DNA of 3,779 nt, from IMG/VR virus record IMGVR_UViG_2534682234_000019. One strand, given 5' to 3'. Origin of the DNA: a virus (taxonomy: Duplodnaviria > Heunggongvirae > Uroviricota > Caudoviricetes). The position numbers are program-made. Below are positions 1 through 3,000 of this stretch, one piece after another. Numbering within the stretch: position 1 is the stretch's first letter; every line of letters begins with the position of its first letter.

Positions 1-3000
1 GATGGTTTATGCAGTGACGGCAACGGCCTTGAGCTGAAATGCCCGTTTACCTCCCGGGATTTCATGAAGTTCCGGCTCGGTGGTTTCGAGGCCATAAAAT
101 CGGCTTACATGGCCCAGGTGCAGTACAGCATGTGGGTGACACGAAAAGATGCCTGGTACTTTGCCAACTATGACCCGCGCATGAAGCGTGAAGGCCTGCA
201 TTATGTCGTGATTGAGCGGAATGAAAAGTACATGGCGAGTTTTGACGAGATGGTGCCGGAGTTCATCGAAAAAATGGACGAGGCACTGGCTGAAATTGGT
301 TTTGTATATGGGGAGCAATGGTAATGAAGCATCCTCACGATAATATCCGGGTAGGCACGATCACTTTCGTCTACTCCGTTACAAAGCGAGGCTGGGTATT
401 TCCCGGCCTTTCTGTTATCCGAAATCCACTGAAAGCACAGCGGCTGGCTGAAGAGATAAATAATAAACGAGGGGCTGTATGCACAAAGCATCTCCTGTTG
501 AATTAAGAACGAGTATCGGGATGGCACATAGCCTCGCTCAAATTGGAGTCAGGTTTGTGCCAATACCAGTAGAAACAGACGAAGAATTTCATACGTTAGC
601 CACATCCCTTTCACAAAAGCTGGAAATGATGGCGGCGAAAGCAGAAGCAAACGAGAGAGACCCGGCATGACAACAACAGAATGCATTTTTCTGGCAGCAG
701 GCTTCATATTCTGTGTGCTTATGCTTGCCGACATGGGACTTGTTCAATGACACCTCAGCAGGAAAACGCCCTTCGCAGCATTGCCCGTCAGGCTAATTCT
801 GAAATCAAAAAAGCCAGACAGCAGTTTCCGGATAAAAACGTCGATGACATTTGCCGTAGCGTACTGAAGAAGCACCGCGAAACGGTAACGCTAATGGGAT
901 TCACACCGACTCATTTAAGTCTGGCGATCGGCATGTTAAACGGCGTCTTTAAGGAGCGATGAACATGAAAAGCAAAATCATCAGGGAGCTACAGGCTCCT
1001 TTTTTATTGTTCGCATTCACCCTCAAGCGTATTAACCAACAATTCAGGGATTAATGGAAGATGGCAGACATCATTGATTCAGCATCAGAAATTGAAGAAT
1101 TACAGCGCAATACAGCAATAAAAATGCGTCGCCTGAACTACCAGACTGTATCCGCAACTCATTGTTGTGAGTGTGGCGATCCGATAGATGAACGAAGACG
1201 CCTGGCAGTTCAGGGTTGTCGGACTTGTGCAAGTTGCCAGGAGGATCTGGAGCTTATCAGTAAACAGAGAGGTTCGAAGTGAGCGAAATTAATTATCAGG
1301 CACTGCGTGAAAAGGCAGAGAAAGCAACTAAAGGAAGCTACATCGTAGGGCATACATCTGTTAACCAGCACGGCAATTTAACAGGAGTTTTTGTTTGCCA
1401 AAAATGGAAAGGAGAACCCGGTGGTGTGATTGCGGAATGTCATGTTAACTGCCTGGTTGAAACAGATGTTCAGGCTTATGCAAACGCTGAATTTATTGCT
1501 GCCTTTAATCCAAATGTTGCGCTGGCGCTTCTGGATGAACGGGAAAGAAACCAGCAATACATCAAACGCCGCGACCAGGAGAACGAGGAGATTGCGCTTA
1601 CGGTTGGGAAGCTGCGTGTTGAGCTTGAAGCAGCAAAATCAAAACTCAACGAGCAGCGTGAATATTACGAGGGAGTAATCGCGGATGGAAGTAAGCGCAT
1701 AGCAGAACTGGAAAAACAATGCGCCGAATGGGAGCGAAAAGCATTAAGCAACTTTGAAGAGTGTGCTGCGATGGCTGAACGTATCGAAGAGATGCAGACA
1801 AAATCTGCACCAGATTCGTTTGGCATCATCGGTGAAAATATTCGAACACAGGACAATCGAATAACGTCAGATCCCATGTTTTGTGTGTATCAAAAGCGCG
1901 AAATCGCTGTTGATGCTGATTATGACCATGACCGGATTGTCTGGGTTGACGAAGATGGCAATGAAGCCAATAAACGCCATAGTCGTCGTCTCGAGCTACT
2001 TCATGAAAACTTTCGAGAGCCACCAGAAAAATGGCGGCGCGTTGCTGTGAAAGATATTGATGAATTCGTTACCTGCTGTTTCACCGAACAGGGTTGTAAA
2101 GACTACCTGGCAGTCAATGGTCACAATCTTCGCTTGCCATTTATATATGTAAAAAGCGGTTTCAGGAACGCTGAATATATCGGCATAAGAAACTGGCTTG
2201 CTGGCATTCGCATCAAAGGAGAGTGAGATGAACGGACAAATATCAATTATTCGCCCTGGCGCTTGTGACGAAGACAATAAGGCTGATTATCCGCCTTGCG
2301 ATGGGTAGAACAATAACTGCTCTCATTACTCCAGAAAATCTCGCATTAGCATTAACCGGAAAGTCAGACCTGCCAGTAGAGCTAAAGCTGCGAAATGTTG
2401 AGATTAAGGTGAAATAGCTATGACCACTTTTACCAATAGCAAACTAACAGACGAATACGTTTCAAATGCAACGTTGATTCGGCTCATTCTGTGGGCTGAC
2501 CAGCACAATAGCCATTATGTTGTAGCGGCTCTGCGCGAGCTACAGGAGCGCCGCAAGGCTGATAGTGCAGAACCTGGAAGCCAAACTTACAAGTTGCCAG
2601 TTAATACACCTTGCCAAGATGCGCCAGCCCATATCTGGCTGCAAACGGCTGGAGTATGGCCAGAAGATGGCGAGTTAAGCGAATTAACGTGGTGCAGCCA
2701 CAATCAACACCATGATGACACGCTATATGTTCGAGCTGACCTTGTGAATGGCAACTATCCGGCAACTCCGGATGGTTGGATAAGCTGTAGTGAGCGAATG
2801 CCGGAGAAATACGATTTCGATATCTGGGTATTCTCTCCATCCAGAGGTGTTCTTGACGGGCTACAGTGGGATGGCTCGATGTTTACTGATGATGAATATC
2901 AGTTCGTTATTCATGACGCCACGCATTGGATGAGAAAAGTATATCCAGCAGCACCGCAGCAGGATGGTGAATGATGCCGCCAGTTAAAGTTGTGATTATC

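What the first reader, a model, noticed from the sequence alone, without database searches (positions are those of the whole stretch)
667..750. Unannotated 27-aa hydrophobic micro-ORF wedged between two small genes by ATGA overlaps at both ends
MTTTECIFLAAGFIFCVLMLADMGLVQ is bounded by ATGA overlaps on both sides (667-670 and 747-750), the classic signature of translational coupling, and it encodes an apolar stretch long enough for a single transmembrane helix. Small membrane peptides in prophage early regions are often toxins, Kil-like division inhibitors or superinfection-exclusion factors. The alternative reading, a 93-aa ORF from ATG 681, gives a Cys/His-rich, non-protein-like N-terminus with no SD.
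Basis: partly seen in the sequence, partly recalled or inferred. Interest (0 to 1): 0.5.

Follow-up and report, generated by a model that had tools for sequence, protein, structure and literature searches.

The report
Overlooked 27-codon membrane-peptide gene in lambda
Between two small early genes of lambda-type phages there is a conserved 27-codon gene for a very hydrophobic peptide that reference annotations miss because a mis-drawn "orf61" covers it, and published "orf61" mutants also destroyed it.

Summary
Window 667-750 is an ATG-to-TGA ORF of 27 codons (MTTTECIFLAAGFIFCVLMLADMGLVQ). Its ATG overlaps the orf63 (DUF1382) stop, and its TGA overlaps the ATG of the real 71-aa orf61.

The window is the exo-xis block of a lambdoid (Stx-type) prophage, about 96% identical to phage lambda, which carries the same ORF.

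Evidence that it is a real gene:
- Across 351 loci it is intact in 347, and the peptide is identical in 307.
- Common variants are synonymous in the 667 frame (9 S : 3 N, P = 7e-4). They are not synonymous in the 681 frame (2:10).
- The signal switches to the orf61 frame exactly at 747.
- Where a Dam methylase replaces orf63, the ATGA overlap is kept and a GGGAGG ribosome-binding site sits in front.
- It is the most hydrophobic of the 69 ORFs in the window.

The 93-aa "Orf61" and lambda's 61-aa "orf61" are annotation artefacts. Lambda PaPa carries a +1 frameshift in the true gene.

The ORF is not strictly unannotated, because some GenBank drafts call it "hypothetical protein". No function is known, no distant relatives exist, and I found no evidence for a toxin, Kil or exclusion role. 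I could not obtain direct evidence of translation. My verdict is a real but uncharacterised small gene of moderate interest.

The parts
479..670 (+). orf63 (DUF1382), the upstream gene. Its TGA (668-670) overlaps the micro-ORF ATG.
   Evidence: Pfam PF07131, E=2.6e-30. PGAP CDS at 479-670.
652..660 (+). Weak Shine-Dalgarno-like CGAGAGAGA inside the 3' end of orf63, 7-15 nt upstream of ATG 667.
   Evidence: Anti-SD duplex -5.1 kcal/mol. In the Dam lineage the equivalent position carries GGGAGG (-10.3 kcal/mol).
667..750 (+). Micro-ORF of 27 codons plus stop: MTTTECIFLAAGFIFCVLMLADMGLVQ. It has an apolar core C6-A21 flanked by E5 and D22. ATGA overlaps lie at 667-670 and 747-750.
   Evidence: Intact in 347/351 loci. 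Synonymous excess specific to this frame. Most hydrophobic ORF in the window.
681..746 (+). Disputed 22-codon 'N-terminal extension' of the 93-aa Orf61 model (frame of 747). It is not under coding constraint in that frame.
   Evidence: S:N = 2:6 for variants in >=5 loci, 21 different peptide versions. No SD. pLDDT 46-60.
747..962 (+). True orf61, 71 aa. Its ATG overlaps the micro-ORF stop. It forms a three-helix domain.
   Evidence: PGAP CDS WP_000188870. S:N = 15:4 in its own frame. Confident fold starts at residue ~24 of the 93-aa model.
807..812 (+). A6 run. Lambda PaPa has A7 here, which frameshifts the true orf61 and creates the historical 61-aa 'orf61'.
   Evidence: Alignment. Translations.
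718..718 (+). The C deleted in the published lambda 'orf61 frameshift' plasmid (pGAWorf61_mut). It lies in codon L18 of the micro-ORF.
   Evidence: Primer in PMC4195576 Table 1, mapped to the window and to lambda.
959..1054 (+). Next link of the overlap chain: a 31-codon ORF whose ATG overlaps the orf61 stop (ATGA 959-962). It spans a terminator-like hairpin at 983-1001 followed by a T-run.
   Evidence: SD UAAGGAG -8.4 kcal/mol. Terminator scan. Annotated as 29 aa in phages 434, lambda and 1W. It may correspond to the 31-aa ORF that lambda ribosome profiling is reported to have found (PMC8614690); that match is my inference from length.

Best explanation
Window 667-750 is a genuine protein-coding gene of the lambdoid early-left (pL) 'exo-xis' operon. 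It is present in lambda itself, at about complement 30925-31008 of the reference by my mapping.

How it most likely works: ribosomes finishing orf63 (or, in one lineage, a Dam methylase) terminate on the TGA of ATGA and re-initiate on the overlapping ATG. They then make a 27-residue, very apolar, net-acidic helical peptide that most likely partitions into the inner membrane. At its own TGA they re-initiate on the overlapping ATG or GTG of orf61. The peptide and Orf61 would therefore be made in a fixed order and ratio.

The amino-acid sequence itself is under purifying selection, so the peptide is more than a spacer. Its most likely role is as a small membrane protein acting with Orf61 and/or on a host membrane protein during the lysis-lysogeny decision.

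Shown here: the ORF, its overlaps, its conservation, frame-specific selection and its hydrophobicity. Inferred: translation, coupling and membrane location. The target is unknown.
For: 1. Anatomy.

2. Frame-specific purifying selection in 351 loci (131 haplotypes). Variants seen in >=5 loci give S9:N3 in frame 667 (P=7e-4), against 2:10 in each of the other two sense frames. Six of the seven variants seen in >=10 loci, including the five commonest, are synonymous in frame 667, and all seven change the residue in frame 681. Amino-acid changes are enriched among rare variants (Fisher P=0.024). The positive control, orf61, gives 15:4 in its own frame, and the switch between frames occurs at 747.

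3. Integrity: 347/351 loci intact and the peptide identical in 307/351.

4. Mosaic test: in 24 of 169 haplotypes orf63 is replaced by a Dam methylase (PF05869). The ATGA overlap is kept and a canonical GGGAGG lies 4 nt upstream of the ATG.

5. The micro-ORF is always followed by orf61 through an ATGA or GTGA overlap.

6. Hydrophobicity: highest of the 69 ORFs; 3 of 5091 shuffled controls reach it.

7. No RNA family, no promoter, and no stable RNA fold (z = +1.66) that could otherwise explain the conservation.

8. It closes the only untranslated gap in a chain of overlapping cistrons running from exo to the 31-aa ORF.

9. Independent gene callers have called it.
Against: - I obtained no direct evidence of translation. 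The lambda ribosome-profiling paper (Liu et al. 2013) is not in the library. The review that summarises it lists only 7-aa and 31-aa new ORFs in this block. The Sakai RIBO-seq supplements do not contain the peptide.
- All relatives are >=~87-90% identical. The selection test therefore rests on only 12-17 variant sites, which are not phylogenetically independent.
- Counting every singleton weakens the signal to 14:16 (P=0.016), although the same dilution hits the orf61 control (30:61).
- The apolar run is 16 residues with acidic flanks and no basic residue, which is borderline for a transmembrane helix and gives no topology signal.
- orf61 exists without the micro-ORF in 34 loci, where a 250-aa gene sits 8 nt upstream. 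So the micro-ORF is not required for orf61 expression.
- No homologue of known function exists.
Confidence: 0.65

Rival explanations
1. Relay only. The ORF is translated, but solely to carry ribosomes from the orf63 stop to the orf61 start (or to keep the mRNA unfolded and protected from Rho). The peptide itself has no function and is degraded.
For: ATGA overlaps at both ends in essentially all loci. Weak SDs at both 667 and 747. The micro-ORF never occurs without orf61. Where it is absent, orf61 sits 8 nt after another gene's stop.
Against: A pure relay needs only an open frame, yet the amino-acid sequence is conserved: identical in 307/351 loci, with common variants 9 S: 3 N. Extreme hydrophobicity is not needed for a relay. 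The amino-acid changes seen in five or more loci are mostly conservative for an apolar helix (T3A, F8L), the exception being D22G at the acidic flank; V26A/I in fewer loci is also conservative.
Confidence: 0.15
2. The long form is the gene. Orf61 starts at ATG 681 (93 aa, as annotated in phi24B, 933W and Stx2 phage I) or at lambda's ATG 651 (61 aa), and the 27-codon frame is a chance overlapping ORF.
For: The 681 ATG and the open frame to 747 are present in 351/351 loci. Many records and PHROG 303 use the 93-aa form. Published modelling used it (PMC8614690).
Against: In the 681 frame, variants are 2 S: 10 N over 671-746, and 2:6 within 681-746. There are 21 versions of the 22-residue extension against 19 versions of the peptide, but the commonest extension covers only 212 loci whereas the commonest peptide covers 307. 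ATG 681 has no SD. Residues 1-20 of the AlphaFold model have pLDDT 46-60, and the fold starts at ~24; the published models also disagreed for residues 1-23. PGAP. In the MTIEHNN lineage the conserved protein begins at the 747-equivalent Met with unrelated sequence upstream. Lambda's 61-aa form depends on a lineage-specific C652T start and the A7 frameshift.
Confidence: 0.05
3. One reading: the peptide is a membrane toxin, a Kil-like division inhibitor or a superinfection-exclusion factor.
For: Its size and hydrophobicity resemble small membrane toxins. It lies in the early-left operon, a region that the literature links to host cell-cycle and replication effects ('bin'). Plasmids and mutants touching this stretch alter induction kinetics.
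Against: No similarity to Kil or any toxin or defence model. No antisense promoter or separate locus of the kind type I toxins have. No basic residues. The region is non-essential for plaque formation, and targeting 'orf61' by CRISPRi gave no effect. Nothing tested here bears on toxicity.
Confidence: 0.1
4. Not a sense-strand gene at all. Conservation would reflect the minus-strand ORF 549..734 (61 aa), whose third codon positions coincide with those of frame 667, or an RNA or DNA element.
For: The phase-linked antisense frame shows a weak synonymous excess (6:6, P=0.045). BPROM predicted a weak minus-strand promoter here in one paper.
Against: The antisense signal is weaker than the sense signal and is the expected echo of shared third positions. 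The antisense ATG is lost in 11 loci and the frame is open in only 309/351. That ORF runs through orf63 and across the mosaic junction, so it changes identity in the Dam lineage. There is no promoter-like site on either strand, no Rfam hit, and the RNA folds less stably than shuffled controls.
Confidence: 0.03

Closest known systems
Small single-helix inner-membrane proteins of E. coli encoded inside operons (KdpF 29 aa, AcrZ, MgtS, CydX, PmrR). Recalled from general knowledge, not tested by sequence here.
   Same: They are 25-50 residues long with one apolar helix. They are often encoded as a short cistron tightly packed in an operon, are missed by annotation, and act by binding a larger membrane protein. 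By my recollection, KdpF likewise lacks basic residues.
   Different: There is no sequence similarity. This peptide is phage-borne and expressed from pL. Its partner is unknown. Its apolar run is only 16 residues between two acidic residues.
Type I toxin peptides (Ibs, ShoB, DinQ, TisB, Hok/Ldr)
   Same: Similar length and hydrophobicity, and a prophage or mobile-element context is common for them.
   Different: Those are free-standing loci with their own promoter, a structured 5' UTR and an antisense RNA, and they usually carry basic residues. Here the ORF is welded into an operon by 4-nt overlaps, no antisense promoter is found, there are no Lys or Arg residues, and there is no family match.
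Lambda Kil / Rac KilR / DicB (early-operon division inhibitors)
   Same: Small proteins of the lambdoid early-left operon that act on the host.
   Different: Those are soluble 47-73-aa proteins that target FtsZ or MinC. There is no similarity to them, and this peptide is apolar.
Overlap-coupled cistron chains of lambdoid phages (ATGA/TGATG junctions, as in the nin region). General knowledge.
   Same: There is a 4-nt stop/start overlap at both ends, the SDs are weak, and the ORF is one link in a chain running exo > orf60a > orf63 > micro-ORF > orf61 > 31-aa ORF.
   Different: This comparison describes how the ORF is expressed, not what the peptide does.
Small ORFs reported in lambda by ribosome profiling (Liu et al. 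2013, as summarised in PMC8614690: 7-aa and 31-aa ORFs in the same block)
   Same: Same operon and the same class of overlooked short ORF. The 31-aa one may be window 959-1054; that match is my inference from length.
   Different: The 27-aa ORF is not among those the review lists. In lambda it lies entirely under the annotated 'orf61' in another frame, so a search for new ORFs outside annotated genes would not flag it. I could not read the primary paper.

Membership tests
Translationally coupled cistron (termination-reinitiation) | The start codon overlaps or abuts the stop of the upstream gene. | tested here: met
   ATGA at 667 in 351/351 loci. It is also kept when the upstream gene is a Dam methylase.
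Translationally coupled cistron (termination-reinitiation) | Translation depends on translation of the upstream cistron. | not testable with these tools
   This needs reporter fusions with upstream nonsense mutations.
Protein-coding gene under purifying selection | There is an excess of synonymous over non-synonymous variation, specific to one frame. | tested here: met
   9:3 in frame 667 against 2:10 in each other sense frame (P=7e-4). The control, orf61, gives 15:4. The test is limited by low divergence.
Small single-pass membrane protein | An apolar segment long enough to span the bilayer (about 18-20 residues). | tested here: inconclusive
   There are 16 uninterrupted apolar residues (Kyte-Doolittle mean 2.81; summed Hessa-scale value -3.4, using scale values recalled from memory). 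A 21-residue window that includes D22 sums to about 0.
Small single-pass membrane protein | Membrane localisation and topology. | not testable with these tools
   There are no basic residues, so the positive-inside rule gives no prediction.
Type I toxin-antitoxin | Its own promoter plus an overlapping antisense RNA regulator. | tested here: not met
   No promoter-like site on either strand in 400-1150 and no Rfam match. The ORF is embedded in the operon by overlaps.
Type I toxin-antitoxin | Toxicity on overexpression. | not testable with these tools
   This requires an experiment.
Lambda Kil family / known defence or exclusion proteins | Sequence match to the family model. | tested here: not met
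   No significant Pfam, PHROG, NCBIfam or PADLOC hit. The best were PHROG 21538 'membrane protein' at E=0.68 and MtrF at E=0.034, both below their cut-offs.
Orf61 (PHROG 303) N-terminal region | Residues 1-22 of the 93-aa form are part of the conserved protein. | tested here: not met
   There is no coding constraint in that frame, no SD and low pLDDT, and the extension is absent in the MTIEHNN lineage. The PHROG match to positions 1-22 reflects propagated annotation.

The most novel reading that the evidence does not exclude
The 27-aa peptide, not 'Orf61', may be the active product behind the published lambda 'orf61' phenotypes.

In lambda PaPa the true 71-aa orf61 is already broken by the A7 frameshift, while the micro-ORF is intact. 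Both the published frameshift (delta-C718) and the delta-orf61 deletions destroy the peptide.

It may work as a dedicated helical partner. One possibility is that it anchors or modulates Orf61, with which it always co-occurs. Another is that it fills the hydrophobic cleft of the Orf63 dimer. That cleft binds a single designed helix at 3 micromolar, and its natural ligand is unknown (PMC10869804).
Probability: 0.15. Interest if true: 0.65.

Novelty: new member of a known kind. Interest (0 to 1): 0.45.

Why it matters
Lambda and the Shiga-toxin phages are among the most studied viruses. Their exo-xis block is under active study because it tunes the lysis-lysogeny decision and hence toxin release.

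If the 27-codon gene is real, three things follow:
- The gene map of this block is wrong in the reference records. The 93-aa and 61-aa 'Orf61' proteins that have been modelled, cloned and deleted are not the natural products.
- Every published orf61 mutant is a double mutant, so its phenotypes need re-assignment.
- A phage-encoded membrane peptide joins the early programme, with an obvious set of candidate partners (Orf61, Orf63, host inner-membrane proteins).

It is also a concrete example of how a historical mis-annotation can hide a conserved small gene from both annotation pipelines and ribosome-profiling screens for 'new ORFs'.

Tried and rejected
1. Diverged orthologues. The 51-52% identity 'relatives' of orf61 (P0069, P0075) turned out to be the same DNA with assembly indels. 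P0036 is an IS3 insertion. No truly diverged locus exists in the collections searched.

2. The genome-contig scan with orf63 returned mostly lambda DNA contaminating unrelated assemblies, so it was of no use for divergence.

3. Distant homologues of the peptide. tblastn against phages, the 5.8-billion-protein word search with a padded query and the full HMMER scan of 1.84 billion representatives found only copies >=87% identical or frameshift fusions.

4. Family libraries (Pfam, PHROGs, NCBIfam, PADLOC) gave nothing significant.

5. A Foldseek search of the Orf61 model against the PDB gave no hit with E<1, so I could not confirm the homeodomain-like or ZapA labels.

6. Literature. Liu et al. 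2013 and the Casjens-Hendrix review are not held. The peptide string occurs in no paper and in none of the Sakai RIBO-seq supplements.

7. Counting all singleton variants from low-coverage metagenome contigs diluted the selection signal even for the control gene, so I stratified by frequency.

8. The antisense ORF 549..734, RNA element and internal promoter were considered and rejected.

9. Programmed -1 frameshifting to fuse the peptide to Orf61: by eye there is no slippery heptamer, and the 681 frame is unconstrained. I did not pursue this further.

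Full report
WHAT THE WINDOW IS

The 3.8-kb window is the 'exo-xis' block of the early-left operon of a lambdoid prophage. Its genes, in order:
- The exo C-terminus (64-324).
- orf60a/DUF1317 (318 or 324 to 506).
- orf63/DUF1382 (479-670).
- The finding (667-750).
- The true orf61 (747-962).
- A 31-codon ORF (959-1054).
- orf73, a TraR/DksA-family protein (1061-1282).
- An Ea22-like gene (1279-2226).
- Further small genes, and an excisionase-like HTH gene (3588 to the end of the window).

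These assignments rest. The stretch 450-1000 is 100% identical to VT1-Sakai and many EHEC prophages, and about 96% identical to phage lambda and to phage 434. It occurs in 3297 of 5426 complete E. coli genomes.

CHECK OF THE OBSERVATION

The ORF is exactly as described. ATG is at 667, TGA at 748-750, and the 27 codons encode MTTTECIFLAAGFIFCVLMLADMGLVQ. ATGA at 667-670 overlaps the orf63 stop, and ATGA at 747-750 overlaps the start of the next gene. The competing 93-codon ORF from ATG 681 exists.

The peptide has GRAVY 1.62, an uninterrupted 16-residue apolar core (C6-A21), two acidic residues (E5, D22) and no basic residue. It is the most hydrophobic of the 69 ORFs in the window. Only 3 of 5091 size-matched ORFs from shuffled sequence equal it.

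HOW PUBLIC RECORDS TREAT THE STRETCH

PGAP/RefSeq annotates orf63 at 479-670 and a 71-aa 'hypothetical protein' (sometimes 'ZapA') at 747-962, and leaves 671-746 blank. Stx2 phage I and phi24B annotate the 93-aa form from 681. Lambda records annotate a 61-aa 'orf61' that starts inside orf63. Phages 434 and 1W use the 71-aa form. None of the sampled phage or RefSeq records annotates the 27-codon ORF.

It is not wholly unknown, however. The exact sequence and single-residue variants appear as 'hypothetical protein' in a number of GenBank E. coli draft genomes and as UniRef A0A0A2SGE8, and gene callers have called it on about 981 contigs. I found no paper that contains the peptide sequence.

WHY LAMBDA'S orf61 LOOKS DIFFERENT

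The alignment shows that lambda PaPa has A7 where the window, phage 434 and the Stx phages have A6 (window 807-812). It also has a T at 652 that creates an ATG at 651. The frameshift truncates the true gene to 29 residues. The annotated 61-aa 'orf61' is therefore a chimera made of four parts:
- A lineage-specific start.
- The out-of-frame reading of the micro-ORF.
- The first 22 residues of the true Orf61.
- A shifted tail.

The micro-ORF itself is intact in lambda.

IS THE 667 FRAME CODING?

I collected 390 loci using a 30-nt anchor inside the invariant part of orf61, so the sample is unbiased with respect to the micro-ORF. The loci came from viral contigs, metagenome contigs and phage records. 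Of these, 351 carry the micro-ORF, in 131 haplotypes of positions 600-962.

The peptide is identical in 307 of 351 loci. The ORF is intact in 347, or 350 counting a form one residue shorter. ATGA at 667 is present in all 351, and ATG or GTG at 747 in 350.

Synonymous (S) and non-synonymous (N) counts, scored in each sense frame:

| Region and variant set | Frame 667 | Frame 681/747 | Third frame |
|---|---|---|---|
| 671-746, variants in >=5 loci | 9:3 (P=7e-4) | 2:10 | 2:10 |
| 671-746, variants in >=10 loci | 6:1 | 0:7 | 1:6 |
| orf61 751-958, variants in >=5 loci (control) | 3:16 | 15:4 (P=6.5e-6) | 2:17 |

So the preferred frame switches exactly at the ATGA junction. Amino-acid changes are concentrated among rare variants (Fisher P=0.024). 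The changes seen in five or more loci (T3A, F8L, D22G) are mostly conservative for an apolar helix; the exception, D22G, removes one of the two acidic flanking residues. V26A and V26I, in fewer loci, are also conservative.

When every singleton from low-coverage metagenome contigs is counted, the signal weakens to 14:16 (P=0.016). The control gene is diluted in the same way (30:61), so this is noise and not evidence against coding.

A minus-strand ORF (549..734) shares third positions with frame 667. It shows only the weaker echo (6:6), its start is lost in 11 loci, and its frame is closed in 42.

There is no Rfam family and no promoter-like site, and the RNA folds less stably than shuffled controls.

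MOSAIC EVIDENCE

Anchoring on the micro-ORF itself gives 169 distinct haplotypes.
- Upstream, the gene is orf63 in 141 and a Dam methylase (PF05869) in 24. The remaining four are truncated or indel-bearing copies.
- In the Dam lineage the recombination joint lies just before the ATG. The Dam stop still overlaps it as ATGA, and a canonical GGGAGG (-10.3 kcal/mol) sits 4 nt upstream.
- In the window the equivalent SD is weak (-5.1 kcal/mol), the SD for orf61 is weaker still (-3.9), and ATG 681 has none (-1.7).
- Downstream, the micro-ORF is always followed by orf61 through ATGA or GTGA.

Conversely, 34 loci carry orf61 with a different N-terminus (MTIEHNN...) directly behind an unrelated 250-aa gene and have no micro-ORF. 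The micro-ORF therefore travels with the 5' end of orf61 as a unit, but orf61 can be expressed without it.

THE 93-aa MODEL

An AlphaFold model of the 93-aa form has pLDDT 46 and 60 for the first two blocks of ten residues. A confident three-helix domain begins at residue ~24-25, right after the Met encoded at 747. This agrees with the published remark that two predictors disagreed for residues 1-23. A Foldseek search of the PDB gave nothing significant.

MECHANISM

I propose that ribosomes terminating on orf63 (or Dam) re-initiate at the overlapping ATG and synthesise the apolar peptide. At its stop they re-initiate on orf61. The ORF thus closes the only untranslated gap in a chain of overlapping cistrons from exo to the 31-codon ORF.

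The peptide is probably a small inner-membrane protein. Because its sequence is conserved, and not merely its open frame, it probably has a function of its own beyond relaying ribosomes.

The ORF, its overlaps, its conservation, the frame-specific selection and the hydrophobicity are shown here. Translation, coupling and membrane insertion are inferred. The target is unknown.

LINK TO PUBLISHED GENETICS

The lambda 'orf61 frameshift' plasmid used to argue that orf61 encodes an active polypeptide deletes the C in CTTCATATTCTGTGTG*TTATGC (PMC4195576). That base is window position 718, in codon 18 of the micro-ORF. The mutant peptide becomes MTTTECIFLAAGFIFCV followed by 25 unrelated residues, and it no longer stops on the orf61 ATG.

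The delta-orf61 deletions in lambda and phi24B (PMC6213356) also remove most of the micro-ORF. The true orf61 is already frameshifted in lambda PaPa. The lambda phenotypes therefore cannot be due to the intact 71-aa protein, and they may belong to the peptide.

Separately, the Orf63 dimer has a hydrophobic cleft that binds one designed helix per monomer, and its natural partner is unknown (PMC10869804). The adjacent, coupled helical peptide is a speculative candidate for that partner. However, its co-occurrence pattern favours orf61 as the linked gene.

COMPARISON WITH KNOWN SYSTEMS

In expression it works like any overlap-coupled cistron of lambdoid operons. In product it resembles the small single-helix membrane proteins of E. 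coli more than type I toxins. It has no own promoter, no antisense partner and no basic residues, and it does not resemble Kil (soluble, no similarity).

It matches no Pfam, PHROG, NCBIfam or PADLOC model. It has no relative below ~87% identity among 1.84 billion representative proteins. It is an orphan confined to this module of E. coli-type lambdoid phages.

LIMITS

- All copies are closely related, so the selection test rests on about a dozen variant sites.
- I could obtain no ribosome-profiling or proteomic evidence. The peptide has no tryptic site, so standard proteomics would not see it.
- The 16-residue apolar run with acidic flanks is borderline for a transmembrane helix.

VERDICT

It is unsupported as to a toxin, Kil or exclusion function. 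The feature is a new, uncharacterised member of a known kind, a small operon-embedded hydrophobic peptide gene. Its interest is moderate, and comes mainly from its presence in lambda itself and from the re-interpretation it forces on the 'orf61' literature.

Noticed in passing
window 2971-3060 (+): There is a second small hydrophobic ORF of 29 aa, MMPPVKVVIITLVMIVIARIMSGEIVWIW. Its ATG overlaps the TGA of the 184-aa gene 2420-2974 (ATGA at 2971-2974). It is the second most hydrophobic ORF in the window. It is 93-100% conserved in only 10 phage records and is not annotated as a separate gene there.
   Followed up: partly
window 959-1054 (+), hairpin 983-1001: A 31-codon ORF (MNMKSKIIRELQAPFLLFAFTLKRINQQFRD) has its ATG overlapping the orf61 stop (ATGA) and has the strongest SD in the block (UAAGGAG). 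It runs straight through a terminator-like hairpin and T-run, so translating it could modulate termination before orf73. Some phage records annotate it as 29 aa. It may be the 31-aa ORF that lambda ribosome profiling is reported to have found; that match is my inference from length.
   Followed up: partly
window 807-812; L003 (lambda): Lambda PaPa-derived sequences have A7 instead of A6 here, which frameshifts the true 71-aa orf61. All 19 A7 loci look like laboratory lambda.
   Followed up: yes
L008-L023 (genome-contig hits): Representative genomes of unrelated organisms (Shewanella, Pseudomonas, Bradyrhizobium, Kitasatospora, Paenibacillus, Oceanobacillus and several MAGs) contain contigs, several of about 48.4-48.5 kb, that carry lambda sequence. 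Most likely this is lambda DNA contamination of the assemblies. A 'Campylobacter phage CJLB-4' record also looks like lambda.
   Followed up: no
L122 441-1193; 34 loci of the 'MTIEHNN' lineage: A 250-aa gene with no Pfam match replaces orf63 plus the micro-ORF. The recombination joint lies inside the first ~10 codons of orf61.
   Followed up: partly
L039 567-1124: A phage Dam methylase (PF05869) replaces orf63 in 24 of 169 haplotypes. The joint lies only a few bases upstream of the micro-ORF ATG.
   Followed up: yes
L007 ~600-2000: An IS3-family element is inserted in the 5' part of orf61 in one E. coli chromosome, removing the micro-ORF region.
   Followed up: no
window 318-326: The start of orf60a is annotated inconsistently, at ATG 318 (62 aa) or ATG 324 (60 aa, a TAATG overlap with the exo stop).
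   Followed up: no
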